A stretch of 64,000 nucleotides of DNA. Source: Malacoraja senta. Taxonomy: Eukaryota. The notes beneath the pieces are model-generated. The model was given only the letters and a program-made list of their open reading frames with translations. It had not been told where the DNA came from and searched no databases. Position numbers and translations under genes: made by a program. Location: positions 5,520,001 through 5,584,000 of the forward strand of contig CM075996.1 of NCBI GenBank assembly GCA_038087875.1. The letters are read 5' to 3'. Positions 1 through 47,269 of the stretch are shown here, in pieces (position 1 is the first letter of the stretch; each line of letters starts with the position of its first letter).

Positions 1-295
1 CTGTTAAATAAAGGGAAATGAGATAATCCTCGTGCAGATCAGCAATCGATTAGTGCAGCTTGAAAGAGAAAAACATATTTAATTCAGTAATTGGTTAAAC
101 CAATTCAGACAAAATGGCCTGATTAATCACAGCTTTGGCCTCCATCCGGCTTGCTGTTGAACTGGCTTACAAGTGCCAATTTATTTCCCAACCCTGACTG
201 CATTGGTCCTTGGAACAAAAAACCCTCAGGAATTGTTTACTTATTAAATAGGATTAGGGAACAATGTAGAGTTCCAGATGCAGCAGATTGCCCAA

Positions 296-1495: not shown

Positions 1496-2684
1496 CAGTC
1501 TGAAGGATGGCCTCTACCCCGAATCGTCACCCATTCCTTCTCTCCAGAGATGCTGCCTAGTCCCGCTGAGTTACTCCAGCATTTTGTGTCTATCTTCAAC
1601 CCTAACAACCCCATTGAGTCATAGAGAGAAAGGCAACACGGAAACAGGCCGCTCGGCCCACCGAGTCCCTGCCGACCACCAGACTTCCATTTTTACACTA
1701 AGCGCCAGAGTAACTCAGTGGGTCGGGCAGCGTCTCTGGAGAACATGGAGAGAGGACGGCATTTAGTGTCTATCCACCCTCACCCTCTGCATCTGCAGTT
1801 CTTTCCTCCTCCTTACTCTTAGTAACAAACTCAAATCTCATCAACCACGGAAGTCAGGCTAACCGGCCTACAAATTCCTTTTCTTTTGCCTCTCTCCCTT
1901 CTTAAACAGTGGAGTTACATTTGTGATTTTCTAGTCCTGTGGAACCATTCCTTGTGCTTCGATGTCTTCTTTTCCTAAATTCCAGTCGGGATAGGCCGCT
2001 CTTGCACCCTTGTCTCCATCACCAGATGATTTATCAATAAAGAGCATCCTCGCCATTTTGTTTGTTTTCAGATTATCAAAAACAATTGGAAAGTAAAACC
2101 CAAATCACAGCAAACGCAGTATGGAATTAGTTAATATCTGCGACATAAGAATCTATTGTCAGATGAAAACAAGAAACTATGAAAACAAGAATTTGTTTTA
2201 AAAAACACAGTGATAGGTGCTTGAAATGCATTGCCATGGGTAGTGCAAGAAGATATGATAGTTCTGTTTCAGAGTCGCTTAGATAGGCACGAATATGCAG
2301 GGATTGGAGAGCTATGGATCACATGCAGGCAGGCAAGGTAAACTTGGTATCATATTGCGGACCAAAAGGCCTGTCCGCGTGCTGTACAGTTCTATGTTCT
2401 GTGCTTTGTTCTCTGTCTAAATGATGCATCTCAAACAAGCAAGGCTAGTAAGGCTTGTTAGTAAGGCTAGGTATATATTCAATCAAGTGCAGGTACTGGC
2501 TGTGCGAAAATAATGTTTTTGTTTTCATACTAAAGCCTTAACGAGAGCTTGATCGTTGCATCAAACTTGTCCTCTTTTCAACTCCCTGGCCCACCTTCAG
2601 CAACCAATGCTCCCCCCCCCCCCATCCCCATCCCCCCCCCCCACCGTCACCACAACCAGAAGCAAATCATTTGGTGCGTCTCAC

Positions 2685-2804
2685 CTTGCAGCAACCTCTC
2701 CTCCTGTTGGCTGAACGTGGAGTGGCACAGGCGTCTAAGGCGTGGGGAAGTCCGCCCCTCGGTCTCCTGCCCTTCCATCTGAGGGCCCGTTTCACATAAG
2801 TGCT
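2685..2804 (-). CDS. Candidate 120-nt in-frame cassette exon of MRTF-A
   Basis: Acceptor tttatttatttttttcttcccaaag|, donor CAAG|gtgaga. Phase 1-1 with no stop: (E)HLCETGPQMEGQETEGRTSPRLRRLCHSTFSQQEERLLQ. Same strand as, and downstream of, the 17524 exon. No homology recognised. Confidence 0.5.
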
Positions 2805-4040
2805 CTTTGGGAAGAAAAAAATAAATAAAGTCAATCCAGTTCACAACCCGATCAGCCCTACCAGCCCTAGCTATAGTGTCAGCCAGCACAGAACCGGGCC
2901 CGTCGGCCCACCTTGTCCATGCTGACCGAGTTGGCATTCTGGCCCAGTCCCTTTTGCTCGCATTTGGCCAACACCCCCTCTAAACCTTTCCCATCTGTAT
3001 ATCTGTCCAAATGCCTTTTGAAAGCCAACCACAAAAAAACTCCTACCTTGAGAGCATGAGGAGGGAGGGGCAGACATTGAAGTATATCGCTTCTGAGGGA
3101 CAGAATCAAACAAACATTGAAGCACTCAGCAAAGGAGTGCTGGTGTAACTCAGCGGGTCAGGCAGCATCTCTGCAGAACATGGATAGATGATGTTTCGGG
3201 TCGGGACCCTTCTTCAGCAATGAAGCGCTCAGTACTGCTCCACAATCAATGCAATAGACCTTCACTGGTAGCCGATGCACAAGATTCAACAGAAAAGCTA
3301 AGCTGCCTCATGCCTTGCCAAGAGCAGTCACCAAAAAAAACACAAACTTCAGTCGAAAATAATGCGTCCAAGTCTTAATGAAACAGCTGGAAGTTTCTTC
3401 GTCAAAAGAACCAAGGACATTACATAAGCAGCAGTCAAATGACACAATGCGACCACACAAAACACTCGCATTACCAGCATTTACTTCAACGCAAACATTT
3501 GGTTGTCCCTGCTTGAGGCTGGCTGCGTTCCATCACATACTCCCTTGCAAGGCTGATAAAACTTCGGAGATGGAGTGGGTCAGGGAGGGATCACCCCTTC
3601 CGTGGGGCAGTAGCCTCAGAGCTCGTACTGGGAGCTACTCGCCGGATAGAGGTCCAGTCTGCATCATTGAAACACTCACTCCCTGAAGGCAACCTACATC
3701 TCCTTGCTTATCCAACACAACACAAAGGCAAGATTTAACTCGAGTCATGTGGAGAACATTTTTTTAACCTTCAAACACACAATGTATTCATAAAAATTTC
3801 AAAGTTTATACATTACCGAATATGCCAGTCAACAATTTCATCACATGCAATGTTATTTAATTACATACCATTAGCATGACTGCAGTTATTATTTACATAC
3901 AAACTTTCAGCGGGCTTTTATTGGGGTTTTGACAGATCCCAGTCACTGAATATGAAAGGACACGCGGTCCTTAATGTTGTGGTCCTCCCCCCACAGAACC
4001 CGCGCAGTGGCAGCACCCGTCTTAAGCAAGTTCCTCAGCA

Positions 4041-4330
4041 AGGTGGCGCAGCGGCAGAGTTGCTGCCGCACAGCGCCAGAGACCCGGGTTCAATCCTGAC
4101 TACGGGTGCTGTCTGTATGGAGTTTGTACGTTCTGTGACCATGTGGGCTTCCACCACTCTCCAAAGACCCACACTCCGAGGACATGGAGGTTTGCAGGTT
4201 AATTGGCTCCTGTAAATTGTTCCTAGTGTGTACCATGCAAAACTGGGGTAACTAGTGTACAGTTGATCATTGGTCGGTGTGAACTCGATGGGCCGAAGGG
4301 CCTGTTTACACGCTGTATCTCTAATCTATA
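4041..4330 (+). mobile_element. tRNA-derived SINE (HE1-like)
   Basis: A box ggtggcgcagcgg, B box ggttcaatcc, tail gggccgaagggcctgttt...ctgtatctctaa shared with CR1-type 3' ends. Confidence 0.85.
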
Positions 4331-4792
4331 CCTTGCTCCAGAACGCCAGCAAGTTTCAGGTGGATCAGAGTGGATGTCAGCAGCAGCAGCGGAGAGTGCA
4401 TGTCCGTGGGAACAGCCTCGACACCAACCAGTGCTTCTTAAACTATTTCAGTCATTCACCCTTGAGTCTTTATCACAAAATTTAATTCGCCCTCGACTAA
4501 ATGTTCTTATGTTTTTTTTTTGGCAATTTTCGTCTTATTCTCCCCTTGTGTACAATTTTATATATAATTTATTTTGTCACATGAGCAAAAAACATAAATG
4601 AACTCATTCACCCCAAAATAATTTCATTCACCCTTGGGTGAGCCATTCCCCAGTCTACACCACAGCCCTGTCATGCAATTGATCAGGATGGATCTCAAGA
4701 TATAGCCCAGCACATCTACACACACCTTGCATTACGTCAAACGCTCACTGAATTTACAAATGCTTATTTCTGGAGCCATCAGTGAAATTGGT

Positions 4793-5220
4793 CATAAGTG
4801 ATAGTAGAATTAGGCCATTCAGCCCATCGTCTACACCGCCATTCAATCAGGGCTGATCTATCTCTCCATCTTAACCCCATTCTCCTGCCTTCTCCCCATA
4901 ACTTCTGACACCTGTACTAATCAAGAATCTATCTATCTCTGCCTTAAAAATATCCATTGATGGCCTCCACAGCCTTCTGTGGTAAAGAATTCCACAGATT
5001 CACCACCATCCGACTAAAGAGACTCCTTCTCGCCTTCCGAAAGGAACGTCCTTTAACTCTGAGGCTATGACCTCTGATCCTAGACACTCCCACTAGTGGA
5101 AATATCCTCTCCACATCCACTCTATCCAGGCCTTTGACTAGTCGGTAAGTATCAATGAGGTCCTCCCCCTCATCCTTCTAAACTCCAGCGAGTACAGGCC
5201 CAGTGCTGTCAAACATTCAC
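4793..5220 (-). mobile_element. CR1 3' fragment
   Basis: Homologous to other CR1 tails (gaattccacagattcaccac; ttctaaactccagcgagtacag). Confidence 0.85.
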
Positions 5221-6289
5221 AGCAAAGAATACCATAAACTCAGGAGAAACTACAATGCATTTGGGCGAGTTATTAAACAGAGAACGCGTCCAATTGGGGA
5301 AATCCCGATGGATAGGAGGGCCACGCTGTTGTCATCTCACCATGCTCAGTCATCAGACACAGGGAGCACGGGGTGGAAAGGTCTTGCTGAGTTACTCCAG
5401 CATTTTGTGTCTGTCTATGGGGTCTCCCCAATCAGGATCAAACTTTGGGCAACTTCTTGGCATTTTCTCCACAAATTTGAAATTAAGCCAGGACAGTGGT
5501 AGAAGCATGGCACTTACGGCACATTTTAGATTGCAAACTTTTTAACTTAATTTGATATATTAAACTGAAATTTTGTGTGTAATTTTTAAAATTGGACCAA
5601 GTAAAAAAAATAATGACCGTTTTTATTGTTTTTAAAATATATATTTTTTCCCCAATGCTTATAGAATGAGAGCAGCAGTCAAAATATTTGAATGTTTGAT
5701 ACCCAATAAGTTGGGAGTCTGGCTCAGTCAGTTGGAAAGGAAGGCCCTGCCTTCAGTGACTAAGTTGCCACTGCAAGCACGTGCAGGTAGGGGGAGCTGA
5801 TGAGCACAGCCAACTCATTTACACTGAAGAAGGGTTTCGGCTCCATAGATGCTGCTGCAATGACATTCTTACTTTTACAACTTTATAGACATATTAGTCA
5901 CAACACCAACAATAAAAAGTTATTCCAAGGAAATCAGACCTACAATAGTGAAAACAAGGTAGGAATATAAATCAAAGGTTTCAACGGTCTGTTTATTGTC
6001 ACGTGTACCAATTAGGGTCAGGTCGGGGGGGGGGGGGGGGGGGGGAGGAGTTCTCCCCGCCACGGGTACGGAGGGGGCTGTGGACCCCCAGCAGGACCAA
6101 AAACAAGACCTGTCAAAGGGCGGATGAGCTCCTAGCGGGCCAACGACCATCCACACACTTCAGTAGAAGTTGCGATCACTGACGTACATAGCATTGTAAA
6201 ACACCATGCTCGTTGATGTTTTCAACGATGATGATGATGACCAATTAAGGCACAGTGAGACTCGATTACCAGTGGAATCAGTGGTGTGA

Positions 6290-7090
6290 TGTTGGTAGTG
6301 GTTGGGTCCTGAGGTAGGGTTGCGGTTAGGGTTATGCAGGGTGGTTCAAGAACCCAATAGTTGATGGAAGGAAACTGTTCTTGAACCTGGAAGCAAGTTC
6401 TCAAGTTCCCGTAACTTCTTCCCAATGTCCGCGATGAGATGTGGGCATGGCCAGGGTGGTATGGGTCTTCAATGGTCTGAGCCACCTTCTTGAGGCAGTG
6501 CTTCATGGAGATCTCTCTGTTGGTGGAGGGGGCCAGTACCTGTAAAGTACCGGGGCAATGTCCACCACTTTTTGTCAACACCTTCGTCCTTGGATGTTCG
6601 AATTACCAAGCCAAACCATGATGTGGGAAGCACACCGAGTCAGTACTCAGTCAACAGATTTGGCTCCATTTTCAAATCCCAGTTGTGATCGGTATAAAGT
6701 TCTTGACCTGACCATGAAGCCCCATTGTCCTGGTGGCTTGCATCAGAGCGTGGTTTGGGAACATCCAGCATAGGGTATGAGCGTGTGAAAGCGTGCATCA
6801 ACAGACTCAGGAACAGCTTCTTCTCCTCCATTATCATGCTTCTGAAGGGACCTTCCATAAGCTAGGGTATTGTCCATCTCATCTCTCCCCTCCTTGTGGA
6901 CATTGGACTTTGTCTATGGGCCTGATGTGCTACAATGCCGAAAATTATATTGTGCACTCCGTATCTTCCCCTTTGTTCTATCTGTTGTACTTGAGTTTGC
7001 CATGATTGTAATTATGTATGGTATGGTACATGGTTGTATTTATGTTATGTATGGTATTATCTGTTCTGTGAGGATAGCAAAACAATGGAG
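6290..7090. mobile_element. Decayed Rex1/Babar-like fragments (6290-6620 minus; 6770-7090 plus)
   Basis: HCLKKVAQTIEDPYHPGHA peptide on minus; agactcaggaacagcttc on plus. Confidence 0.6.
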
Positions 7091-8342
7091 ACTTTCCCGC
7101 TGCTGTGGTTATGTCTGTGTGTCACAGAATTACGCCCCATCTTATGAAGCTTCAAAAAGTACATTCATAATCAATGGTGCCTTGTTTCACAGTTTATTAG
7201 ACATATCACAACATATTTATATACCCAGTCTATCATGGAGTGAAGAGTAACAGAAGCCTGCAGAAATCTTTCAAGAGTGAGTAATAGATAATTGCTGCTC
7301 CATACTGGATCTAAAAAACAATTCAATTAGATGATGATGCAAACAAGCTGCAGACTATGAAATATCGACACATGGTACTGGTTTATTTTAGTCACGCGTA
7401 CCAAGAGGGTGAAAAACGTTACTGGACTTTATCTTGCACTAAACATTATTCCCTTTATCCTGTTTCTGCACACTACGGACGGCTCGATTGTAATCAAGTG
7501 TAGTCTTTCCACTGACCGGATGGCACGCAACAAAAAGCTTTTCACTGTACCTCGTGACAAAGTTTAGTTTAGAGATACAGCACGGAAACAGGCCCTCCGG
7601 GTCGGTGCCGACCAGCGAGCCACTCACATGAACACTATCCTACACCCACTAGTAACAATTTTGTACATTTACTAAGCCAATTAACCTGCACACCTCTACG
7701 TCTATGTGCTATACTATGATTACAAACAAGCAAAATGGGTGATGCTAAGAGAACAATACCAGAGTGCTACCGTTACAGAGAAAGTGCAAATAAAAAAGTG
7801 CAAGGGCTACAATGAGGTTGATTGGGAGCTCAAGACTATGCCCGTAGCTGATAACAACAGGGAAGCAGCAGCTCCTGAATTTGGTGGTCCATGCTTTCAA
7901 GGTTCTGTATTTTCTGCCTGATGAGGGGATGAGTGAGGTGCAAACGCTGCTTGTTCATGTTGGGAGTCTGGGAATCTGTGGATTGCCACTCCAACTCTTT
8001 TATTATTGTGCACCAGTGGTGGTATCTCCATGTCCAGAAGCCCCTCCTCTCTTGCAGGAGGATGGGTTCAGTGCAGCTTGCAATAATGGAGTTATTCTGA
8101 ATTCTGAGGGAGGGTCTCGACCCGAAACGTTACCCATCCCTTCTCTCCAGAGATGCTGCCTGGCCCGTGGAGTTACTCCAGCATTTTGTGTCCATCTTCG
8201 GTTTAAACCAGCAGCTGCTGTTCCTTCCTACACACAATAATATCCCACTCTCCTTCACAAGTGCGCACATCAGACAAAAATATTCATGCCCCTAAAGAGA
8301 TACTTTAAAAAATAATGAATACCTGGCTTAGGGTGTAACTTT

Positions 8343-8869
8343 CTCCCCGTTTGATTGCAACCTTGTCGTGCTCGGGGAGCTTGTGTGTCTCAGTGACCCC
8401 TAAAGCTATGCCAGCGGGAGATTTGTCTCCTGTTAGGGTCTCCCATGCTGGACAGGTCGAAGGGTAGAGGCGAGACGAAGAGCGATCCACTGGTCCTCCA
8501 GGTTGGAGGTTGAGCACAGGGCTAACAACCCTGTCTCGTAAAACAAATATGTTACGGAAACAGCAACTGAAGGAATCAACACTACTGGGCGTGATGGACT
8601 TCCAGGGCTATCGATCGATGCCCAGATGAATGTCAATGGTGAAAGCCAAAAGGAAGAGAACAAGACAGCATCCCAAGAATAGTTCCCTGCACTGGACACC
8701 GGAAGGGAAAAGGAAAAGAGGGAGACCCAAAACCACCTGGCGTCGAACTGTAGAGGAGGAAATGAAAACAATGGACCTGACCTGGGGTAGTGTCCAGAAC
8801 AGACAGGAGTGGAGGACCTTCACTGCTGCCCTACATGCCAGGAGGCATAATATGCAGGAGGTAAGTAAG
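8343..8869 (+). mobile_element. Internally deleted non-autonomous RTE-clade element
   Basis: 15-bp TSD ttagggtgt(a/g)acttt at 8328-8342 and 8870-8884. 3' peptide WTPEGKRKRGRPKTTWRRTVEEEMK...EWRTFTAAL is typical of RTE ORF C-termini. (GTAA)n tail. Confidence 0.8.
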
Positions 8870-10400
8870 TTAGGGTGTGACTTTAACCGGGGAGTGAGAT
8901 ACACAGCGTGTGCCGCAGTTAAAATCATACACATGGCAAGAGGCCAAGGTCGTGTGTGTTGATGGCCATGTTCAATGTTGGAAATTAGTAAGCTGCAACT
9001 GGGGATGAATTCAGGAGCTCCACAGCAAAGCAACTGAGTGAAGTTAGATGCCCTGCATCTGGAGCATCACACTTCCAGGGAAGTGGCAAAGACCAAAGCT
9101 CCACAAGCCACCTGCAGCATCGGACCTTAAAAAATATCCTTCGTTTGCCTGAAAGCCTATTCTGGAAGCCCAGATCATTTGCCTCCCAGCTCATTTAGGG
9201 TTAGGAAGCACAGCCTGAAGCAATAACCAGTTTCATTATGCGTAGGAAGCCCTTCAGCCCACCGGGTCCGCGCCGACCAGCGATCCCCGCACAATAACAC
9301 TATCCTACACCCACTAGGGATAATTTTTACATTTAATAGTTTAATAGTTAATTATTTGGTCTTTTTTAAGTATATATTGCTTTCAGGTATTATTGTCCAT
9401 ATTGTATTTTGTGTATTTTTTGCCTGCTTGCGTTCTGAGTGTGTGGGTTTGTTGGTTGTTGGCTTTTGGACATCTGAATTTCCCTGAGGGGATCAATAAA
9501 GTATTTATTATTATTTATTACTATTTACCAAGCCAATTAACCTACGAACCTGTACGCCTTTAGAGAGTGGGAGGAAACCGAAGCTCCCAGAGAAAACCCA
9601 CGCAGGTCACGGGGAGAACGTACAAACTCCGTACAGACAGCACCCATAGTCGGGATCGAACCCGGGTCTCCGGCGCTGCATTCGCGGTGAGGCAGCAACT
9701 CTACCGCTGCGCCACCGTGAATGCGCCAAATAGAGTATTTTAGCTCAGTTTGACCCTTTGCTCACTGAGTTTTTAATGTAGCGGCATCAGGTGTGTTCTT
9801 CCAACACAAGTGGGTAGAGAATAAACACATTGAGGCTGAGTCTCGGGAGTCTTGACATTTTATCACAACTCCCAAAAAGTGAGGGGTAGAAGGGCGGGAG
9901 TGGGTTGCTGAGGGGCAGTAGCGTTGAGTGTATCAACACAATAAAGTTCAGGCACAGCAAACTGCTTGGCTCACACACTTCATTCAATCATATCCAAGCC
10001 ACTGAGAGACCAGCGAGAAAAATAAGCTGTTCAAATCGCCAGCAACATGGACATTCATGCAGAATTGGAAAACAGCAATTAAAACAAGGTGGATAAGACA
10101 TAAAATGCTGGAGTAACTCAGCGGGACAGGCAGCATCGCTGGGGGGAAGGAACGGGTGATGTTTCAGGTCGAGACCTTTCTTCAGACTAACTCAGACCCT
10201 AGTCTGAAGCAGAGTCACCTGTTCCTTCCCTCCAGAAATGCTGCCTGTCCCGCTGAGTTACTCCAGCATTGTGTGTCCATCTTCGGTTTAAGGCAGTATC
10301 TGCAGTTCCTTCCTGCACAATTAAAACAGTACTCTATCCCCACTGCTCCGTGTGCTCTCGAGAAAGCTGTCTCCCTCAGCTAAACCGGGAAAAGGACAGA

Positions 10401-10877
10401 CAGCTAGCCCAGTTCCCAGCCCAGCCCAGCTAGCCCAGTTCCCAGCCCAGCTAGCCCAGTTCCCAGCCCAGCTAGCCCAGTTCCCAGCCCAGCTAGCCCA
10501 GTTCCCAGCCCAGCCAGCCCAGTTCCCAGCCCAGCCAGCCCAGTTCCCAGTCCAGCCAGCCCAGATCCCAGCCCAGCTAGCCCAGTTCCCAGCCCAGATC
10601 CCAGCCCAGCTAGCCCAGTTCCCAGCCCAGCCAGCCCAGTTCCCAGCCCAGCCAGCCCAGTTCCCAGCCCAGCCAGCCCAGTTCCCAGCCCAGCTAGCCC
10701 AGTTCCCAGCCCAGCTAGCCCAGTTCCCAGCCCAGCTAGCCCAGTTCCCAGCCCAGCTAGCCCAGTTCCCAGCCCAGCTAGCCCAGTTCCCAGCCCAGCC
10801 AGCCCAGTTCCCAGCCCAGCTAGCCCAGTTCCCAGCCCAGCCAGCCCAGTTCCCAGCCCAGCTAGCCCAGTTCCCAG
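10401..10877. repeat. 21-bp minisatellite (CAGCCCAGC(T/C)AGCCCAGTTCC), ~22 units
   Basis: Directly visible tandem array. Confidence 0.97.
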
Positions 10878-11475
10878 CAGTGAACAGGCACTTGACCCGG
10901 ATTCCACACAATCCTACCCAGTCATGTGCCGCTTTACCTGCCACTTTACTCGGCCACTTGATTCCTCGTCCCGAACAAGGCCATCACTATCCAGTGGCGC
11001 GGGGTACTTTCTATCGATGTTCACAGCTGCTTCGCCCCACAGTCTTTTTGCACAAGCTTATCGCCAGACACATTTCCAGCACACAGACATGTTCTGATGT
11101 GGATGGATCCCTCCCACTAGCATTTAGGTGCAGCCAACATGCATGAGCTCACCCTTACAAGCAGAACAGCCTTGAATACACAAAGCTTTTACTGCTCTTG
11201 TGAACTTTATCCTGTGAGGACAATGGCTTGCTTTCTTCCACAATCAATGTTAACCCCTTCATCCAGTTTTCTTTTTTGCAAAAAAAAGTGAATAGATCAC
11301 ATGCAATGACTTCCTTGCTGAAATGAAGCATCTTTCCATTTCCTGTGCTCAGCCATTCCGTTGCACTTATTCACAACTGTGGTGCTTTCCCACCAGTCTC
11401 TCCTTCCAGACAGTCAAGCCCAGGTCTGGAACTATTCCCAAACGCACAAAGCGCCCAGGTTACTTACTTTCACCA

Positions 11476-12381
11476 GGGCAACTTACAGCCCAGCGGTGTG
11501 AATATTGAGTTCTCCAACTTCAAGTAGCCCTTGCATCCCCCTCTCTCTCCGTCCCTCCCCCACCCTCATCATCGCACTGGTTTCAATAGACAATAGGTGC
11601 AGGAGTAGGCCATTCGGCCCTTCGAGCCAGCACCGCCATTCAATGTGATCATGGCTGATCATCCCCAATCAGTACCCCGTTCCTGCCTTCTCCCCATATC
11701 CCCTGACTCCGCTATTTTCAAGAGCCCTATCTAGCTCTCTCTTGAAAGTATCCAGAGAACCGGCCTCCACCGCCCTCTGAGGCAGAGAATTCCACAGACT
11801 CACAACTCTCTGCGTGAAAAAGTGTTTCCTCGTCTCCGTTCTAAATGGCTTACTCCTTATTCTTAAACTGTGGCCCCTGGTTCTGGACTCCCCCAACATC
11901 GGGAACATGTTTCACTGTCGTCCTGTTGAGTTGCACCGTCTGTAGAACTCGTTATCACCGAGCCCGTAGCCAACAATGGGGTGGTTGGGCCACACTTCCT
12001 CGACGGCCGTTGCTTTTTGCATATCTTTCAATTGTTGGCCCCATAGCAGGAGCATCCACGTCGCGGGGCTGGAAACTGGAAGTATCCTGAGCACATTCTG
12101 CTACCACCATCATCTATTGCGACAAGTGATGGCTTCCACCGATTGTCGCCGGAAGCCTGCGTCCTTTTCAGGACGGACGATGACAGCGAGGTCAACATTT
12201 GTAACAAGATGGACACGAAAAGAAGACTCATTTGTTCTATGCACCGTCTGTACCTATTGCTTCCCTTTCCCCTGACTCTCAGTCTGAAGAGGGGTCTTGA
12301 CCCAGAACATTACCCATCCCTTTTCTCCAGAGATGTTGCCTGACCCGCTGGGTTACTCCAGCCTTTTGTGTCTATCTTCGG
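11476..12381 (+). mobile_element. Penelope-like 3' end, interrupted by a CR1 fragment
   Basis: GNLQPSGVNIEFSNFK* ORF end at ~11476-11527; 3'UTR continues after the CR1; terminal unit at ~12255-12381. Confidence 0.65.
11584..11912 (-). mobile_element. CR1 3' fragment
   Basis: MFPMLGESRTRGHSLRIRSKPFRTE...GEKAGTGY. Confidence 0.9.
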
Positions 12382-13678
12382 TAATTGTAATATGGGGCCG
12401 TATCTTCCATTTTAAATAAATCAAATATTTACAGGGAATCATTCGAGGTTCTTAAAACAGAGACACTCGAACAAAACTATTATGAAAAGTGATGCCACCT
12501 TTAAGTCCATTCAATTCAAAAATGAAAAACAATGACTCATTCGTTATTAGAGGCATTGAACCAGATCAAGAAGGCGAAATGTCCATAAAATGCTTCCAGC
12601 TAAAGCACCTCCTTGCTAAGGTTCAGCAGTGACATAGCTCACACAGTAAACATACGTGCGATTTGCACAGTGATGATGTGATGGGTTATGGGGAGAAGGC
12701 AGGAGAATGGGGTTGAGAGGGAACAGCCATGATTGAATGGCAGAGTAGGGTCTCGATCCGAAACGTCGCCCATTCCTTCTCTCCAGAGATGCTGCCTGTC
12801 CCGCTGAGTTACTCCAGCCTTTTGTGCCCATCTCCGGCAGAATAGACTTGATGGGCTGAATGGCCTAATTCTGCTCCCATCGCTTATGACTCGCAAATAG
12901 AAAAGAGCTGTGTAGGAAAGAACTGCAGATGCCGGTTTGAATCGAAGATAGACACAAAATGCTGGAGTAACTCAGCCGGGACAGGCAGCACCTCTGGAGA
13001 GAAGGAATGGGTGACGTTTCGGGTCGAGCCTCGACCCGAAACGTCACCCATTCCTTCTCTCCAGATATGCTGCCTGTCCCGCTGAGTTACTCCAGCTTTT
13101 TGTGTCAAACTTCAATAGAAAAGAGCTCTCAGGCTTCATTCTGGGACAAGCAGATTTTCCATTACGTTCACCGCAATAAATGGCACCTCGCAAGCGCATT
13201 ATTATGCTGAGCGCCCCAAAAAGACGGTCATTTTATGCAGAGTAAAGGAACTCTCTCTCTTGTACTCTCGCTGCTCCCCCTCTGTGACTCCTCCTGCTCT
13301 CCAGCTCTCTCCCTCTGCCCTGACTCTCAGTCCGGAAGAAGGATCTCGACCCGAGACGTCACCCATTCCTTCTACCCAGAGATGCCGCCTGTCCCGCTGA
13401 GTTACTCCAGCATTTTGTGTCCATCTTATGCGTAGACCAACATCTGCAGTTCCTTCCGACACATCTCTCTCTTGTACAGTTTAGTTTTCAAACAACCACA
13501 ATCAACGATAACCCCTTCATTTAATTTTTTTTTTTTAAGAAGTGGATCACACACAACCTCCTGTTAAAAATGTAACAGATTCTGCATTTTACTTAATTAC
13601 ACAACTGAAATCAGGCAACATGGGAAATAATTAAATAGCCTACATGTGACAGATTACAATTAGAAATACGCATACTTA

Positions 13679-15028: not shown

Positions 15029-15778
15029 ACGTCGTCAGGTCAGAGCTGGTCTGGATTTTGATTTTATGCCCAGCAGATCTCTAGCCGGGATGACCAGTTT
15101 AGTTTAGACATACAGCGCGGTAACAGGCCCTTTGGCCCACCGAGTCCATGCCGACCAGCGACCCCTGAACACTAGCAATATCCTGCACACTCGGGACAAT
15201 TTAGAACTTATACCGAAGCCAATTAGCCTACAAATCTGGACGTCTTTGGATGTGGGGAAAACCAGAGCACCCGGGGAAAACCCACTCGACCACGGGGAGG
15301 ACATGCAAACTCCGATCAGACAGCACCCAGAGTCAGGATCAAACCCGGGTGTCTGGAGTTGTGAGGCAGCAACTCTACCCCTGCGCCACCGTGCCCCTCC
15401 AAGTTATCGAACCCTCTTTGAGGCAGATTGCTTTGATTTAGGAAACATCAGCTATTTTGTGCAATGAAAACTCTGACAAACAACAATGGTACAAATGACT
15501 AGCTAGCCTGCTCTGGTGATGTTGGCTAGCGGATAAACAATGATCACAGTACCAGATAAACTCCCTTGCTGTTCTTCAAAACGGTGTCATGGGATATCTT
15601 AGATCCAGCCGAATGGTTCTTGGTTTAATGTCTCACCTGAAGGACAACACATTTGACAGTGCAGCATTCTGCCCGAGTGGAGAGACAACCGTATTACAAC
15701 AGGAATGGAACAGAAATGGAAGGAGCAAGCATTAGACTCCTTACTGCACCATCACCATTCAATGCAATTGATAGTGTT

Positions 15779-15977
15779 AAAGAAGGAACTGCAGATGCTG
15801 GAAAATCGAAGGTACACAAAAATGCTGGAGAAACTCAGCGGGTGCAGCAGCATCTATGGAGCGAAGGAAATAGGCAACGTTTCGGGCCGAAACCCTTCTT
15901 CAGACAGTCTGAAGAAGGGTTTCGGCCCGAAACGTTGCCTATTTCCTTCGCTCCATAGATGCTGCTGCACCCGCTGT
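15779..15977. mobile_element. Palindromic Penelope-terminal-repeat-derived element with two opposite hammerhead-like cores
   Basis: Inverted halves; CTGAAGA-A-GGGT-TTCG-GCCC-GAAA-CGTT at 15909-15936 and its mirror on the minus strand. 18-bp flanking direct repeat aatgcaattgatagtgtt at 15761-15778 and 15978-15995. Confidence 0.75.
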
Positions 15978-17143
15978 AATGCAATTGATAGTGTTGCCTT
16001 GAGGACATTTGCGTGCACTAACCCCATAATCTGCCCTTAATATCCAAAAATCAATCTAATGTGGATATATTCTGACTCTGCTCTAGTGGACGGCTGTTAA
16101 TACGATGCTTAAGAAGGAACTGCAGATGCTGGAAAATCGAAGGTAGACAGAAATGCTGGAGAAACTCAGCGGGAAATTCACCCGTTGAGTTTCTCCCGCA
16201 TTTGTGTCTACTGCTAATATGTTGTGTCTACCTTCGATTTAAACCAGCATCTGCAGTTCCTTCCTCCAGAGATGCTGCCTGTCCCGCTGAGTTACTCCAG
16301 CATTTTGTATCCACCTTCGATTTAAACCATGATGTACCTTCTCCGGTACATGGTCACAATGTAATATTAGCATTCTTTGTTTAGTTTGGAGGTACAGCAT
16401 GGAACCACGGCCACCCAGTCCACGGCGATCATCAATCACCCGTTCACACTACTTTTATGTTATCTCACTTTCTCACGCACTCCCTACACACTAGGGGCAA
16501 TTATACAGAGGTCAATCGACCTACAGTCACACTCGTCTGTGGGAGCTGGGAGGAAAGCAGAGCACCCAGAGAGAACCCACGCAGTCACAGGGAGAACGTG
16601 CAAACTCCACACTGACAGCAAACCCGAGGTCAGGATCAACGCGGATCCATGGCACTGCGAGGCAGCAGCTCTACGGGTTGCGCCACTGTGCCACCCTTAA
16701 TATCCAAAAATCGATTAATCTCCAACTCAAATGTTCTTTTGGATGATCACACACAAGCACGTAGTCTTCATCCTACGCAGCAAACGATGGCAAGATATTC
16801 AACTGTGCATCACTTCACAGTCGAGTTGATCTTTGCCATTGGGAGTGGCCTGGTGGTGCAGCGGTAGAGTTGCTGCCTTACAGCGCCAGAGACCCATGTT
16901 CCATCCTGACTGCGGGTGCTGTCTGTACGGAGCATATACGTTCTCCCACTGATCTGCGTGGATTTTCTCCGGGTGCTCCGGTTTCCACAGGTTTGTAAGT
17001 TAATCGGTTTGATTGTTTGGATGCGGGCATCATTGGTCAGCGAGGTATCAGTGGGCCGAAGGGCCTGTTTCCACCCTGTATCTCTAAACTAAACTGGCTT
17101 TAAGTTAGCTCCTCTGGGAGCCACATATGTTTAGCTACTGGAT

Positions 17144-17523: not shown

Positions 17524-17701
17524 CATTTTTCCTCTTGTTCAAAGGGGAAAGGCCGTTGCTCGACTGCAGCGTGAGCTCTTGCAGTTCATTTGTGACCGCT
17601 TCGCTCTGCGGACTCGGGGCAGAGCCATCCTCGTCACCGTCGCCAACCCCACCACCGCCCGGCCCCTTCCCAGAGACGGGCGAGGGGAAGGCCGACTGCA
17701 T
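17524..17701 (-). CDS. MRTFA: MRTF-A N-terminal coding exon (exon 17732-17524; coding from ATG at 17701)
   Basis: Translates to MQSAFPSPVSGKGPGGGGVGDGDEDGSAPSPQSEAVTNELQELTLQSSNGLSPLNKRKN+G. PSPQSEAV.NELQEL.LQ...L.PL..RKN is the conserved MRTF-A/B segment just before RPEL1, and NELQEL favours MRTF-A. Acceptor ttttgatcgtttcag| before 17732; donor AATG|gtgagc at 17524 (phase 1). Confidence 0.88.
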
Positions 17702-18429: not shown

Positions 18430-19258
18430 GGGCGCAGGGGAGGTTTACGAGAATGATCCCGGGGACGATTGGGTTACGTATGATGAGCGTTTGACGGCTC
18501 TGGGCCTGTACTCGCTGCAGTTTAGAAGGATGAGGGAGGATCTCATTGAAACTTGCCAAATAATGAAAGGCCTGGATAGAGTGGATGTGGAGAGGATGTC
18601 TCCGCTAGAACCAGAGGGCACAGCCTAAAGGGCCTGTCCCACTGTACGAGGTAATTAAAGAGTTCTCCCGAGTTTTCCCCCGATTCGAACTCGGAGAATG
18701 TCCGTAGCGGGTCCGTAGGAGTTCGTGGATGTCTCGGAGCGGCTCGTACGAGTAAAAAGCAAAACAAAATTTCATCACGAGTATTTTTTTACTCGTGGAC
18801 ATTTTTCACAGTGTTGAAAAAATTTCACGAGTTTACCGGATTTCCCGAGTACCTACCTTTAGCATTACGAGCCGCTACGAGACATTCACGAACTCCTATG
18901 GACCCGCTACGGACATTCTCCGCGTTCGAATCAGGGGAAAACTCAGGAGAACTCTTAAATTACCTCGTACAGTGGGACAGGCCCTTCAGAATAAAAGAAT
19001 GTACCTTTACAAAAGAAATGAGGAATTTCTTTAAGCAGAGGGTGGTGAATCTGTGGAATTCATTGCCTCAGGCAGCTGTGGAGGCCAAGTAATAGAGGGT
19101 TTTTTTAAAGCGGAAATTTACAGGTTCCTAATTAGTAAAGGTGTCATAGGTTACAGGGAGAAGGCAGGAGAATAGGGTTGATAGGGAAAGATACTTCAAC
19201 CATGATCGAATGGCGGAGTAGACTCGATGGGCAGAATGGCCTAATTCTGCTCCGTTGA
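18430..19258 (+). mobile_element. CR1 3' fragment split by a MITE
   Basis: aggtttacgagaatgatcccggg...EMRNFFKQRVVNLWNSLPQ; 3'UTR. Confidence 0.85.
18629..18985. mobile_element. PIF/Harbinger-like MITE with ~120-bp TIRs, inserted in a CR1
   Basis: agggcctgtcccactgtacgaggtaatt...aattacctcgtacagtgggacaggccct; 3-bp flanks TAA/TCA; interrupts the CR1 sequence cacagcc-tca-gaataaa. Confidence 0.85.
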
Positions 19259-20118: not shown

Positions 20119-20428
20119 GGGGCCTGTCCCACTGTACGAGCTAATTCAAGAGCTCTCCCGAGTTTTAAAAAAAACCGAGCTCGTGGTAAGCACGTAGAAT
20201 GTACGTAGCGGCTACGTCGGAGCTCGGGGACGTCTCTTAGCGGCTCGTAACGCTAACGGCAGGTACTCGGGGAAACGCGGTAAGCTCGTGAAGATTTTTC
20301 AACGTGTTGAAAAATGTCCACGAGAGCCCCGAGTACCTACGAGCGGCTATTACTGTAATTCTCCGAGTTCGAATCAGGGGGAAACTCGGGAGAACTCTTG
20401 AATTACCTCGTACAGTGGGACAGCCCCA
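20119..20428. mobile_element. PIF/Harbinger-like MITE
   Basis: TIR ggggcctgtcccactgtacgag ... ctcgtacagtgggacagcccc. Confidence 0.8.
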
Positions 20429-21165
20429 TTTCTCATCAAACACATTGGACATACACGCAGAGTTTGATCACAAGATGCTTCAATGTGCTGGACTGAAGGT
20501 CCTTTTAAACCTGCAGCCATGTTATTGTAAGCTATTACTGTCGTGCGTACCAAGATACTGTGCAGAGCTTTTGTTTGCGTGCTATATAATGAAACCCAAC
20601 CATACTGTGCTCAAGTACAAGCAGGTCATGCACAAGTACACTGCTAATGCAAAGGGAAAAAATACCAGAGTACAAAACAAAGATGAAACTTACCCCGCAG
20701 GTCTAGCCAGCAGTACAGACAATCACAAAAGTTAGATTACTGCGGAAAGACACTTCCGCTTTAAACGGCTGCGCAAACTGTAAAGTCATCAGCTCACAGA
20801 CCCACACACACCACCTAGCCCGGCTCAAGAACAGCACTTACTAAGACCTGGGACAAAGTGCTGCATTCAGTAAGAGAATGACTCATTCTGCTCCTCCCTG
20901 AGGCAAGGGGCAGAGAGATCCCAATGACAAAATGGAAAGCTCCAAACCACTCCTCCTCAGAACAATATATCCCCCCGCACTTTCAAGACCTGTTTTCAAC
21001 CTCACTGTAATGAGGTTGCCAAGTCAAAACAGATACTTTTATTGCCCAGCCCCAGTGTCTTTCCCGTGTGTTGTTCCAAGATTTCCACAAGAAATGACAA
21101 CAGAAACTCATGTAAGCCGATATTCTATACAAATGTATACTCTTCAGGAAGAACACTGACCATTA

Positions 21166-21449
21166 AGGGGCTGTCCCACTGTATGAGGTAATTCAAGAGT
21201 TCTCCCGAGTTTCCCCTGATTCGAACTCGGAGAATTACGGTAATAGCCGTTCGTAGGTACTCGGGGCTCTCGTGGACATTTTTCACAGTGCTGAAAAAAC
21301 TTCACGAATTACCGAGCATTACGAGCCTCTACGAGGCATCCACGAGCTCCGATGTAGCCGCCACGTACATTCTACGTACTTACCACGAGTCAGATTTTTT
21401 TTAAACTCAGGAGACCTCTTGAATTACCTCGTACAGTGGGACAGGCCCT
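21166..21449. mobile_element. PIF/Harbinger-like MITE (inverted relative to the 20119 copy)
   Basis: TIR aggggctgtcccact ... agtgggacaggccct; perfect TTA TSD at 21163-21165 and 21450-21452. Confidence 0.85.
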
Positions 21450-21461
21450 TTAGCACTTAGA

Positions 21462-24406: not shown

Positions 24407-24943
24407 CATAGATACATAGAAAATAGGTGCAGGAGTAGGCCATTCGGCCCTTCGAGCCTGCACCGCCATTCAATATGATCATGGCTGATCATACAACTCA
24501 GTATCCCGTACCTGCCTTCTCTCCATACCTCCTGATCCCTTTAGCCACAAGGGCCACATCTAACTCCCTCTTAAATATAGCCAATGAACTGGCCTCAACT
24601 ACCCTCTGTGGCAGAGACTTCCAGAGATTCACCACTCTCTGTGTGAAAAAGTTTTTCCTCATCTCGGTCTTAAAGGATTTCCCCCTTATCCTTAAGCTGT
24701 GACCCCTTGTCCTGGACTTCCCCAACATCGGGAACAATCTTCCTGCATCTAGCCTGTCCAACCCCATAAGAATTGTGTACGTTTCTCTAAGATCCCCTCT
24801 CAATCTCCTAAATTCTAGCGAGTATAAGCCAAGTCTATCCAGTCTTTCTTCATATGAAAGTCCTGACATCCCAGGAATCAGTCTGGTGAACCTTCTCTGC
24901 ACTCCCTCTATGGCTATAATGTCCTTCCTCAGATTTGGAGACC
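24407..24943 (-). mobile_element. CR1 3' fragment nested in a SINE
   Basis: WSPNLRKDIIAIEGVQRRFTRLIPG...YGEKAGTGY; flanked by cacacta. Confidence 0.9.
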
Positions 24944-26473
24944 ACACTAGTTCTATCCTACACACACTGGGGACAATTTACAGAAGCCAATCAACCTGCA
25001 AACCTGCACGTCTTTGGAGCGTGGGAGGAAACCAGGACACCCGGAGAAAACCCACGCAGTCACAGGGAGAATGTACAAACTCCGCACAGACTGCACCAGT
25101 AGTCGGGAAAGAACCCGGATCTCTGGTGCTGCGAGGCAGTAACTCTACCGCTGCGCCACCGTGCCACCCCAAATCTAAAACAAGAACAGAAACCGTTGGA
25201 AATACTCAGCAGGTCGGGATGAGAAAAAAAGTGAACATTTCAGGTCAGGGCCCCTTTGACAGAACTAAAAATGAGACAGAGCAGCTGGTAAAGCTGCAGT
25301 GAGATTGGGGTGGGAATGTTTCTTTATTCCACTGCACTTAGTTCTATATTTATTCCACTGCTCTTAGTTCTATATTATCTTCAAACATCAATGATGTTTT
25401 GTGTAAATGAGAATCTCCCTATATGTTACTCTATATTTGATTAGTACGGGCGTCAGGAGTTATTGGGTGAAGGCAGGAGAATGGGGTTAGGAGGGAGAGA
25501 TTGATCAGCCATGATTGAATGGCGGAGTAGACTTGATGGGCCGAATGGCCTAATTCTGCTCCTATTACTCATGACCATATATTAACCTTCACTCATGGTA
25601 CAAGTTGCTGCAGGGGATGTCCAGAGTTACTGAAAGCACTGGATAAACACAAGTGTTACCTTCCATTGAGAGTAGACAAAAATGCTGGAGAAATTCAGCA
25701 AGTGCGGCAGCATCTATGGAGCGAAGGGAATAGGCGATGTTTCGGGTCGAGACCCTTCTTTCAGACCAGTCTCATCCCGGCCACTCCAGACAAAAATGCT
25801 GGAGAAACTCAGCTGGTGAGGCAGCATCTATGGAGCGAAGGAATAGGTGACGTTTCGGGTCGAGACCCTTCTTCAGACCCTTCCATTGAGAGATCAGACT
25901 AATCAATCTCCCGTCGGTGAACTTGCAGAAATTCGCCCATTAGAAACAACTACAGACTGGGCATAAGTCAAGCTCATAAAGTTCCCACAATAAGAGCAAA
26001 GAAATGCCAGAAAACACTCATCATTAAACTTAAGTTGACTGCATTGCAACACAGATTTTTTTTTCCGCGATCCTCTGCTTTCTCCTACCACCCAGCAATT
26101 GTACTGAATGTCCTTGGCTGTTTTCACCCACACTTCCTGTACAAGCTTGCCTGTAGTCAAACAACAGTAAGAAAGAAACAATGCTGAGATTTTACTGCCT
26201 GGAACCTGTCACGTATGCCCAATGTCTGCTACCCAGGCCGCTGGCGAACTTCCACGGAAAAATCGGTCCGCCAATCCTCCCGACGGTGCTTTTTATTCGT
26301 TTGTAGTCACAATACACCTTGTATTTGTATTACTAAATACCAGTGTGAACCCCGCTCCGATGTCAGGTAAAACACAGTGACACAGACCAAGGCAGCTCGA
26401 ACCAGCTCATCCACTTGCACTCACACATTCAACTGGCTAGACAGTCATCGCTTCATACTGCGGCCCTCTCTTT

Positions 26474-31032: not shown

Positions 31033-32560
<1,528 letters not shown>

Positions 32561-40564: not shown

Positions 40565-40764
40565 NNNNNNNNNNNNNNNNNNNNNNNNNNNNNNNNNNNN
40601 NNNNNNNNNNNNNNNNNNNNNNNNNNNNNNNNNNNNNNNNNNNNNNNNNNNNNNNNNNNNNNNNNNNNNNNNNNNNNNNNNNNNNNNNNNNNNNNNNNNN
40701 NNNNNNNNNNNNNNNNNNNNNNNNNNNNNNNNNNNNNNNNNNNNNNNNNNNNNNNNNNNNNNNN
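40565..40764. other. Assembly gap (200 N)
   Basis: Run of exactly 200 N. Confidence 0.99.
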
Positions 40765-41874
40765 CACCCGCCAGCATTTGGCCCGCATCCCACCAAACCC
40801 TGTCCTATGCATGTGTCACAAGGAACTGAAGATAGACACAAACTGCTGGAGTAACCCGGCGGGCCAGGCAGCATCTCTGGACAGAAGGAATGGGTGACGT
40901 TTCGGGTCGAGACCCTTCTTCAGAGTCTGAAGAAGGGTCTCGACCTGAAAGATCATCCAGAGATGCTGATTGTCCCTCTGTCCTATTCATGTACCTGTCG
41001 AACGACCTCAATTACCTCCTCTGGCAGCTTGTTCCATCCACCCACCACCCCTTGTGCGCAAACAAATTATTGAACAATTTTAATAATAGATGTAAATGTA
41101 GAGAGAAATGTAGAGTCGTCCATAAAGGAGAGATATTAAAATAGTGAAGTTAATTTTATTCACCCATCAGCCTCCTGATGTTTGAGTCATTGCACTCTTT
41201 TTTAAAGGCACTCTGATGGCGATCAGCGATCAACAGAGTTAGATAGAGCTCTAGGGGCTAGTGGAGTCAAGGGATATGGGGAGAAGGCAGGCACGGGTTA
41301 TTGATTGGGGACGATCAGCCATGATCACAATGAATGGTGGTGCTGGTGCGAAGGGCAGGAATGGCCTCCTCCTGCACCTATTTTCTATGTTTCTATGTTA
41401 ACAGCTATTAAAGAATTATTGCTTAGCATTTGGCCTATGGACATCTTTCCACATGCCTCATCAATCCATTTAGTTCCTGCTGTGCCTACGTGTAAGACAT
41501 GTTTGTTGTTTTGGATGATTTCCCGTTTCCAGCTCCCTGCCCACTCACGTAACGTTAATTGTGGTTAATTAAAATCTACATCTTTGACTAATGTTTTAAT
41601 GATTTATCCTGATCTTTTTTGAAGTGATTCCGTTTTCAAGGTGTGGGTGAAACCATTTATCGACCATCTCGAACCACTCTCGAGGGTGGTGGTGATGGTG
41701 GTTGGTTGCCTCCTTGAACAGCTTCCCATCTTAGAGAGGGAGCTCCCTGAAGGAATCCCCACATGTTCCCACACCAGGATGATGTGCGTCATGCGGGGGG
41801 ATTTGCATCTGGTGGTGTCCACATCCATCTGGTGCCATTGCTGTCGTCCTCTGTGGTAGAATCATAGAGTCTTA

Positions 41875-46813: not shown

Positions 46814-46879
46814 TGCTGCAACTGAAGCTTCAGCAGCGGCGGACACGCGAGGAGTTGGCCAGCCAGGGAATCATGCCAC
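46814..46879 (+). CDS. MRTFA: MRTF-A RPEL1 exon (66 nt, phase 1-1)
   Basis: Acceptor cccttctctccggcag|, donor |gtaagt. Encodes (V)LQLKLQQRRTREELASQGIMP(P). LKLQQRRTREEL matches MRTF-A rather than MRTF-B (LRLQQRRTREQL) or myocardin. Confidence 0.93.
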
Positions 46880-47269
46880 GTAAGTACTTGGTGCTCAGCG
46901 CACACTCATAGCAGGAGCTGGGCGGCTGCACGTCCCATTTTAATCACAGTTTATGGTACCATTTTGACACAACCATGGTTGCAAAATGGTTGCATCCTCC
47001 TTCTCTGCCTTCGTTTTCTTCCGTGTGATGCATGTTACGCGTGCACACACACAGAGTCGAGCTGTTCAGAATGAACTTGTCTTTCACTTTCCTCCGGCAT
47101 GTGCAGTTTGCCTTTTTAAGATGTCTGCAGCCGTGTAGATTCAGCATTACACAAGCCTAGGCGTTGGATGAAACAGGACGGTGGTGGGGTTCAAGGGTGC
47201 TGTCCAGAGTAAGGGTTTTTAACTATTGAATCTAGCAACCCACACAGAACCCCCTTTGCTTACCGCTCA

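What the first reader, a model, noticed from the sequence alone, without database searches (positions are those of the whole stretch)
15875..15936. The most abundant short repeat carries a minimal hammerhead ribozyme core and is the terminal repeat of a Penelope-like element
Seen: CTGAAGA-A-[stem II]-GAAA-CG-T(C/T) recurs throughout. Plus-strand starts include 14516, 15909, 19270, 21875, 22704, 28164, 30438, 32435, 40927 and 44659; perfect minus-strand copies are at 25849-25876 and 40896-40923. Two subfamilies keep stem II by structure-consistent change: GGGU-CUCG-ACCC versus GGGU-UUCG-GCCC. Stem III is reduced to the palindrome ACGU. At 11476-12381 and 31033-32560 the unit lies downstream of a Penelope-type ORF end (LGSLQPSG.NIEFSNFK*). 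Established: CUGANGA...GAAA...UH is the hammerhead core, and Penelope-like elements carry minimal hammerheads with palindromic stem III that cleave as dimers. Caveat: stem I is only ~2 bp here and there is an extra A after the core, so activity is an inference.
Basis: partly seen in the sequence, partly recalled or inferred. Interest (0 to 1): 0.7.

Follow-up and report, generated by a model that had tools for sequence, protein, structure and literature searches.

The report
Penelope retrotransposon end with minimal hammerhead
The commonest repeat in this window (about 12% of its bases) is the ~130-base end-piece of a Penelope-type jumping gene, likely from a cartilaginous fish, and it starts with a known minimal self-cutting RNA motif whose cutting is untested and predicted to be blocked by a competing fold, so this is a new example of a known arrangement.

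Summary
The motif is real: 11 exact matches against 0.01 expected, and 42 fuzzy copies against 0 in 10 controls. It forms the 5' edge of a ~130-nt repeat, the window's commonest (81 segments, 11.6% of bases). The repeat is the pseudo-LTR of a Penelope-like element (PLE), likely Neptune-type. It lies downstream of GIY-YIG ends that match shark and skate PLE proteins, and shows an optional ~35-nt tail, head-to-head pairs and 11-18-bp target-site duplications. The finding's own locus is one head-to-head insertion with an 18-bp duplication. The extra A and 2-bp helix I are published features of PLE minimal hammerheads, not defects. Against activity: no covariation among window copies; stem II is predicted to lose to an alternative hairpin (P at most 0.04 at 8 of 8 intact copies, median 0.95 in relatives from metagenomes); the subfamily change favours the wrong fold; no copy starts or ends at the cleavage site. 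Copies instead start at the core's 5' edge, likely the RNA's start. A separate HDV-like ribozyme element is nested at 12037-12226. Verdict: new member of a known kind; cleavage untested.

The parts
15761..15778 (+). Left target-site duplication (18 bp) of the finding's insertion
   Evidence: identical to 15978-15995
15779..15905 (-). Long arm: pseudo-LTR copy (subfamily A) from 2 nt before the core to the end of the ~35-nt tail
15876..15903 (-). Minimal hammerhead word: CUGAAGA, extra A, stem II GGGU/GCCC with UUCG loop, GAAA, CG, UU; predicted cleavage 3' of 15876
   Evidence: architecture as in PMC4209133 Fig. S3
15906..15977 (+). Short arm: inverted pseudo-LTR copy from 3 nt before the core to about +69; 70 nt perfectly complementary to the long arm
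15909..15936 (+). Second minimal hammerhead word; predicted cleavage 3' of 15936
15978..15995 (+). Right target-site duplication
11477..11527 (+). Last codons and stop of a broken PLE GIY-YIG endonuclease ORF
   Evidence: 12 of 19 identical to P0020, pairwise E 2e-07
11528..12283 (+). PLE 3' UTR, about 240 nt once two nested insertions are left out; collinear with 32192-32440
   Evidence: contigs of 3 of 4 runs join 11566 to 11909
11586..11912 (-). Nested insertion, 28 related hits in the window; CR1-like LINE 3' end (label and orientation recalled, not tested)
12037..12226 (+). Nested ~190-nt repeat with an HDV/CPEB3-like ribozyme fold at 12037-12103, flanked by an imperfect ~9-bp duplication
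12284..12383 (+). Pseudo-LTR (decayed core, no tail) closing the first ORF-linked copy
31036..31183 (+). GIY-YIG C-terminal fragment, frameshifted, then interrupted by an insertion with a long (TG)n run
   Evidence: 19 of 33 identical to whale shark P0014, pairwise E 8e-11
32190..32560 (+). Remaining ORF end, ~210-nt 3' UTR and pseudo-LTR (core at 32435, decayed) of the second ORF-linked copy
25673..25878 (-). Direct (head-to-tail) dimer of two tail-less copies inside one 14-bp duplication; first core perfect (25849-25876), second broken by an extra A and a CpG change
40896..40923 (-). Perfect subfamily B hammerhead word, in a head-to-head pair with 40927

Best explanation
The repeat is the ~130-nt pseudo-LTR of a Penelope-like retrotransposon (likely Neptune clade, likely from a cartilaginous fish), and its first 28 nt match the minimal type I hammerhead of such elements, which would cut only weakly, as a dimer or with the element's protein, because in free RNA it is predicted to be masked by a competing hairpin. 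Shown: the motif, its position downstream of GIY-YIG ends, two preferred 3' ends (about +95 and +130), 5' ends at the core's edge, head-to-head pairs and target-site duplications. Inferred: the element's endonuclease nicks both strands 11-18 bp apart; reverse transcription starts inside the RNA at +130 or +95, as shown in vitro for the anole Poseidon element; it runs through the uncut ribozyme and stops at the RNA's 5' end, about 3 nt before the core (an initiator-like TCAGTCT). This gives ORF-less 100-130-nt copies. Priming at both nicks, or snap-back at stem II, gives the head-to-head pairs with the tail on one arm. Cleavage is therefore not what defines the ends of these copies.
For: Window GIY-YIG fragment finds 8 proteins at E up to 0.001 in 1.84 billion. 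Their longer relatives named by a source are whale shark, zebra shark and little skate proteins; two carry RT, a CX4CxxC linker and GIY-YIG. The zebra shark protein P0016 reads through its 3' UTR into LMKGLRPKR, the frame in which the window motif reads LKKG-x-x-PKR (1 of 36 proteins). The same core word in 122 metagenome loci has a helix I, not part of the search pattern, of 3 bp or more in 24 of 40 flank types (shuffled mean 7.3, 0 of 2000 reach it); 37 of 122 loci have a hit to the profile of the shark PLE protein, mostly the GIY-YIG end, on the same strand and mostly 70-125 nt upstream. 3' ends: 28 of 74 at +86..103 and 30 of 74 at +120..135; 5' ends: 35 of 74 within about 6 nt of the core start. 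Duplications of 11 bp or more flank 14 of 45 units against 3 of 175 controls; 10 of the 14 are inverted pairs; 3 of the other 4 end within 3 nt of the core start. 15 of 21 head-to-head pairs have the tail on one arm only (10.4 expected, p 0.036). Subfamily majorities differ at 0 of 11 core positions and 20 of 116 scorable positions overall. Literature: PMC4209133, PMC11167929, PMC8557442, PMC3846280.
Against: No PLE reverse transcriptase fragment and no full-length element is in the window, so the clade rests on homologues; no RT tree was built. The core-versus-rest difference between subfamilies is not significant (Fisher p 0.11). No covariation among 32 window copies. The hammerhead fold costs 3-6 kcal/mol against the best fold in 3 of 3 copies tested, which fits a dead motif as well as a gated one. 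The RNA 5' end is inferred from DNA copies only; CAG|T after a pyrimidine tract could equally be a splice acceptor. 5' ends were mapped against 7 window copies, so a different upstream sequence in subfamily A would be missed. The pair count is automatic and holds doubtful rows (one arm counted twice; the 2 long/long pairs rest on weak or complex alignments).
Confidence: 0.78

Rival explanations
1. Same element, but the hammerhead is vestigial: it no longer cleaves and the word is kept as a promoter or protein-binding signal at the RNA's 5' end.
For: P(stem II) at most 0.04 with 60 nt of context in 8 of 8 intact copies, against a median of 0.95 in 65 relative types folded with 10 nt before and 33 nt after the word; helix I only 2 bp; subfamily A, which includes the finding's 100%-complementary arms, perfects GUUUCG/CGAAAC; no covariation; no ends at the cleavage site. 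Eight of nine Xenopus retrozyme dimers did not cleave in vitro (bioRxiv 10.64898/2026.07.22.740005).
Against: All 11 core positions, the CG palindrome, G10.1 and an allowed H17 (C or U) are kept in three subfamilies. The zebra shark read-through implies a change at the free position 7 only. The anole element's hammerhead also needs protein yet is core-dependent. Short prefixes (to +30) of subfamily B copies do fold stem II (P 0.5-0.84), leaving a co-transcriptional window.
Confidence: 0.3
2. The 5' edge of the copies is a spliceosomal 3' splice site (CAG|U) rather than a transcription start, as with the Drosophila virilis intron that ends at helix I; splicing would remodel helix I.
For: A pyrimidine tract and CTCAG|T precede the core in copies that keep upstream sequence. 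In D. virilis the intron end maps to the 5' end of helix I (PMC4209133; intron passages in PMC2377424).
Against: No shared first exon upstream of the truncated copies; duplications abut the core's edge in 3 of 4 non-inverted units; many copies keep AGT or GT upstream, which reaches into the would-be intron.
Confidence: 0.2
3. The palindromes are a MITE family (non-autonomous DNA transposon with terminal inverted repeats) and the hammerhead likeness is incidental.
For: Many copies are short inverted pairs flanked by duplications.
Against: Arms are usually unequal; duplications vary from 11 to 18 bp; single arms have their own duplications; the unit follows GIY-YIG ORF ends on the same strand here and in other loci.
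Confidence: 0.03
4. The locus is a microRNA precursor, or a chance hairpin.
For: Rfam miRNA models score on the palindromes, for example mir-722 at 15870-15944, 48 bits.
Against: All are far below the gathering scores, most hit both strands about equally, and the hairpins follow from inverted insertion; no hammerhead family was among the 29 Rfam matches, as expected for a motif without helix III.
Confidence: 0.02

Closest known systems
Minimal hammerheads of metazoan Penelope-like elements (Cervera and de la Pena 2014, PMC4209133)
   Same: CUGANGA plus one extra base, G10.1-C11.1, GAAA, palindromic CG at 15.2/16.2, UH; no helix III; located in the pseudo-LTR; mostly dispersed single copies, some in opposite-strand pairs. 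The Acropora digitifera Neptune row also has a 4-bp stem II with a tetraloop.
   Different: No cartilaginous fish among the 56 rows of Fig. S3. Helix I is at the 2-bp minimum, and the core is predicted to be masked by downstream pairing. Density is about one segment per 0.8 kb here, against 2,000-9,000 motifs per genome reported there (different counting methods).
Poseidon element of Anolis carolinensis, PAc (Frangieh et al. 2024, PMC11167929)
   Same: Two internal RT start sites that define an optional tail; both strands nicked and extended; hammerhead silent without protein, not needed for insertion; no RNA-seq ends at the cut site.
   Different: Poseidon clade, with the ORF starting in stem II. 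The relatives here have the Zn-finger linker of Neptune/Nematis; where this family's ORF starts is not seen in the window.
Neptune-clade PLEs (Craig et al. 2021, PMC8557442) and Adineta vaga Penelope structures (PMC3846280)
   Same: C-terminal GIY-YIG, CX2-5CxxC linker in homologues, inverted head-to-head pseudo-LTRs with the tail at one end, duplications, solo pseudo-LTRs.
   Different: Here the ORF-less solo and inverted copies dominate and carry their own duplications, so they are primary insertions rather than recombination remnants.
Animal non-LTR retrozymes (bioRxiv 10.64898/2026.07.22.740005)
   Same: Non-autonomous derivatives of PLE pseudo-LTRs with type I hammerheads; found in the one chondrichthyan sampled.
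   Different: Retrozymes are head-to-tail tandem arrays with a full motif in each unit; these copies are mostly single or head-to-head, and the one duplication-flanked direct dimer has a broken core.

Membership tests
PLE minimal hammerhead | Core CUGANGA ... GAAA ... NUH | tested here: met
   11 of 11 core positions identical in three subfamily majorities; 20 of 43 segments keep an intact core
PLE minimal hammerhead | One extra base between positions 9 and 10.1 | tested here: met
   A in all three subfamilies; about 96% A at 12291 in laid contigs; consensus CUGANGAH
PLE minimal hammerhead | Helix II closed by G10.1-C11.1 | tested here: inconclusive
   93% of cells can pair, but predicted occupancy is at most 0.04 in native context; no covariation above shuffles
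PLE minimal hammerhead | Palindromic 15.2-16.2 in place of helix III | tested here: met
   CG in all subfamily majorities
PLE minimal hammerhead | Short helix I | tested here: inconclusive
   2 bp (GU/AC or GU/GC), 70% of cells paired; 2-bp cases are published; 3 bp or more in 104 of 125 metagenome matches
PLE minimal hammerhead | Sits in the terminal repeat downstream of a PLE ORF | tested here: met
   Two window loci, zebra shark read-through, 37 of 122 metagenome loci
PLE minimal hammerhead | Self-cleavage as a dimer or with protein | not testable with these tools
   No raw RNA reads were offered; needs a bench assay
Neptune-clade EN+ PLE | Single ORF with RT and C-terminal GIY-YIG | tested here: inconclusive
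   Window has only GIY-YIG C-terminal pieces; homologue P0014 hits RVT_1 and GIY-YIG
Neptune-clade EN+ PLE | CX2-5CxxC linker between RT and EN | tested here: inconclusive
   Present in homologues such as P0014 (CNRRKCYTC); that part is not in the window; shared with Nematis
Neptune-clade EN+ PLE | Placement by RT phylogeny | not tested
   No reference set of clades was at hand; no tree built
EN+ PLE | Optional 30-40-nt tail, often at one end only | tested here: met
   Two 3' end classes about 35 nt apart; 15 of 21 pairs long/short
EN+ PLE | Inverted 5'-adjacent copy and target-site duplication | tested here: met
   21 head-to-head against 1 tail-to-tail pair; 14 of 45 against 3 of 175 duplications
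Non-LTR retrozyme | Head-to-tail tandem units, each with a complete hammerhead | tested here: not met
   8 direct neighbours listed, none an array of complete motifs; the duplication-flanked dimer has one broken core
MITE | Equal terminal inverted repeats and a fixed short duplication | tested here: not met
   Unequal arms, 11-18-bp duplications, single-arm insertions
HDV-like ribozyme (nested element 12037-12103) | Nested double pseudoknot P1, P1.1, P2, P3, P4 with G1-U wobble and catalytic C in J4/2 | tested here: inconclusive
   P2 8 of 8, P1.1 2 of 2, P3 2 of 3, P1 6 bp (7 is usual, recalled), G1-U present; majority letters at 12093/12094 give GCUAA; Rfam CPEB3 25.6 bits, below the gathering score of 35

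The most novel reading that the evidence does not exclude
The pseudo-LTR has become a self-standing 100-130-nt mini-retroelement, among the commonest repeats of cartilaginous-fish genomes. Its RNA starts at the hammerhead's first bases, is held uncut by a conserved masking hairpin that the element's protein opens, and is copied from two fixed internal start sites at both nicks of one target, the two cDNA ends annealing through a five-base imperfect palindrome. The many duplication-flanked head-to-head copies would then be a genome-scale record that settles how PLEs make inverted ends with a one-sided tail.
Probability: 0.25. Interest if true: 0.62.

Novelty: new member of a known kind. Interest (0 to 1): 0.33.

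Why it matters
Hammerheads in PLE terminal repeats have been known since 2014, so the link is not new. What this family adds is a lineage missing from the published alignment that I could read, very high density, and short, well-bounded insertions. The role of PLE hammerheads and the origin of head-to-head pseudo-LTRs are open questions. This family makes both testable: copy ends avoid the cut site, 5' ends coincide with the core's edge, and a masking hairpin gives a concrete gating hypothesis. The nested HDV-like element, whose 5' end falls exactly on the predicted cut site, is a contrast case in the same kilobase.

Tried and rejected
No whole genome is held for this window, so counts are for 64 kb only. 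A direct homologue search with the 41-aa window fragment found nothing among 3 candidates; the profile-free search of all representatives did. Pfam gave no family for 3 of 3 short window GIY-YIG fragments. The search for related loci with the shark alignment in metagenome contigs: 186 pattern hits, none confirmed. The motif pattern in viral contigs: 0. Sequencing runs: no RNA holder listed and no raw reads; two runs are guessed RNA, contigs only, so expression, RNA ends and cleavage could not be seen, and summed contig depth was not used to rank parts. Covariation within the window: not above shuffles. Single-strand folding z-scores of two motif copies: +0.5 and +0.7. Rfam miRNA hits rejected as palindrome effects. 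The ESM Atlas gave no usable hit for the putative exon at 17525-17701. Earlier scan notes: nothing by two sequences or by words. Lunse et al. 2016 (RNA Biol), the paper on dimeric cleavage of PLE hammerheads, is not held; it and the preprint's closed supplements could already list this family. Repbase and Dfam were not available.

Full report
1. Observation. The motif is present far above chance: 11 exact matches against 0.01 expected, and 42 places within 7 mismatches of the 28-mer against none in 10 Markov controls. The motif is the 5' edge of a ~130-nt repeat. Seven window copies used as queries give 81 segments covering 7,405 bases, 11.6% of the window. It is the commonest repeat here (self-match depth 75 against 21). 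The finding's coordinates span the junction of a head-to-head pair with 70-nt arms that are 100% complementary, inserted at 15779-15977 between two identical 18-bp duplications.

2. It is a PLE pseudo-LTR. The 35-residue fragment at 31033-31137 finds 8 proteins at E up to 0.001. A search with one of them returns 29 longer relatives; the three named by a source are from whale shark, zebra shark and little skate, so the host is likely a cartilaginous fish. P0014 hits RVT_1 and GIY-YIG and has the linker CNRRKCYTC, which PMC8557442 (passages) gives as the mark of the Neptune and Nematis clades; no tree was built. Both window ORF ends align to these proteins. No PLE RT fragment is in the window. 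The 3' UTRs of the two ORF-linked copies align in order once two nested insertions are left out, and contigs of 3 of 4 runs join 11566 to 11909 across the first. One of 36 stored proteins, from zebra shark, reads through its 3' UTR into LMKGLRPKR, the frame in which the window motif gives LKKG-x-x-PKR; this implies the same word with a change at the free position 7.

3. It has the published minimal-hammerhead architecture. PMC4209133 (main text parts 1-2 of 4; supplement parts 1-2 of 3) defines the consensus as CUGANGAH, a G-C-closed helix II, GAAAN, a palindrome and NUH. The extra A and a 2-bp helix I (D. virilis, Culex) are therefore family features. None of the 56 rows of its Fig. S3 is a cartilaginous fish. 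Helix I was not in the pattern, yet it reaches 3 bp or more in 24 of 40 flank types (shuffled mean 7.3; 0 of 2000 as high), and 37 of 122 loci carry a hit to the shark PLE profile, mostly the GIY-YIG end on the same strand 70-125 nt upstream. These relatives share the word, not the rest of the repeat; they support the motif class, not activity of the window family.

4. Evidence against easy cleavage. Only 8 of 43 keep core, stem II and CG together. With native 3' context the purine-rich 5' half of the core pairs with the downstream pyrimidine tract: P(stem II) is at most 0.04 in 8 of 8 such copies, against a median of 0.95 in 65 relative types (context 10 nt before, 33 after, where window copies score 0-0.16). 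Subfamily A, the finding's own, forms a rival GUUUCG/CGAAAC hairpin even in the shortest context (P 0.02-0.14). Subfamily B prefixes ending at +30 do fold stem II (0.5-0.84). A transcript across the finding's two arms would be one -150 kcal/mol hairpin. These are predictions, not measurements.

5. What the copy ends say. Of 74 segments of 40 nt or more, 28 end at +86..103 and 30 at +120..135: the optional 30-40-nt PLE tail. Contigs of run X21 leave the reference at 12378/12379 (+95/96) into unrelated flanks. 35 of 74 start within about 6 nt of the core's first base; 4 start at +25..27 and none at +28/+29, and none ends there. Duplications of 11 bp or more flank 14 of 45 units against 3 of 175 controls; 10 are inverted pairs, and 3 of the 4 others end within 3 nt of the core start. 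There are 21 head-to-head pairs and 1 tail-to-tail pair; 15 of 21 have the tail on one arm (p 0.036, with doubtful rows kept in). In the metagenome loci 18 of 128 matches have an inverted core within 300 nt upstream.

6. Mechanism. PMC11167929 (parts 1-2 of 4) showed for an anole PLE that both strands are nicked and extended, that RT starts at two internal sites that define the tail, that the hammerhead cuts only with protein, and that uncut RNA is the main template. The window fits this. I infer that cDNA starts at +130 or +95, passes the uncut ribozyme and stops at the RNA's 5' end about three bases before the core, where TCAGTCT fits the initiator consensus (recalled). A splice acceptor at CAG|T is the rival, by analogy to D. 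virilis. Three junctions read CAG-A-CTG (30437, 37191, 56308), too tight for a snap-back loop but what two cDNA ends would give by annealing through an imperfect five-base palindrome; others fall on the stem II region (43674-43685, 45574-45602) and fit snap-back. PMC3846280 (passages) proposed self-priming on an antisense template for such palindromes; the window does not exclude it.

7. A second ribozyme-like element. Inside the first 3' UTR, 12037-12226 does not align to the other UTR and is flanked by an imperfect ~9-bp duplication. Its first 67 nt match Rfam's CPEB3 ribozyme (25.6 bits, below the gathering score of 35) and can form P1 (6 bp, G-U first), P1.1, P2 (8 of 8) and P3 (2 of 3). 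Of the 6 listed contig pieces that start in 12037-12060, 4 start at 12037 or 12038, the predicted cut site, and over 99% of the laid depth in the two large runs reads T and A at 12093/12094, giving GCUAA around C12092. HDV-like ribozymes at the 5' ends of LINEs and SINEs are known (PMC6765202 passages); the partner LINE was not identified.

8. Novelty. The PLE-hammerhead link is known, and a 2026 preprint (parts 1-3 of 5; supplements closed) reports retrozymes in one chondrichthyan. Searches for a description of this family found none (listings, with passages read in PMC6155905, and PMC4350176), nor for the HDV-like element (listings only). Lunse et al. 2016 was seen only as a citation, and repeat databases were not available, so the family may already be catalogued. 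Verdict: new member of a known kind, interest 0.33.

Noticed in passing
window 12037-12226 (+): Multi-copy ~190-nt element with an HDV/CPEB3-like ribozyme fold at its 5' end; contig matches and a likely duplication start exactly at the predicted cut site; P2 and L3 are close to the mammalian CPEB3 consensus. One copy in the window.
   Followed up: partly
window 46813-46881 (+): Exon coding an RPEL repeat (Pfam above cut-off; matches MKL1/MRTF-A chains): the repeats sit in or near an MRTF-family gene.
   Followed up: partly
window 17525-17701 (-): Exon-like stretch ending at a GT donor that I recall as the MRTF N-terminal exon (not confirmed). It is on the opposite strand to the RPEL exon, with the 200-N gap at 40565-40764 between them: possible mis-oriented contig or inversion.
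   Followed up: partly
window 25673-25878 (-): Head-to-tail dimer of two tail-less pseudo-LTRs with a 21-nt unrelated spacer inside one 14-bp duplication: a retrozyme-like unit or a template jump.
   Followed up: partly
window 18625-18989, 20120-20427, 21165-21450: A different inverted-repeat family (arms 46-124 nt, 92-94% complementary), MITE-like.
   Followed up: no
window 10325-10983: Tandem array with a 21-nt period seen as repetitive open frames.
   Followed up: no
L034, L040, L059, L115, L122: Metagenome loci whose flanks put GU before the core and, in some, AC after the cut site, as in the window family; L059 has an inverted core 2 nt upstream.
   Followed up: no
window 35363-36094 (+), 24498-24977 (-): LINE ORF2 fragments (RVT_1 hit for the first); the second commonest repeat, 28 related hits to 11586-11912.
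   Followed up: no
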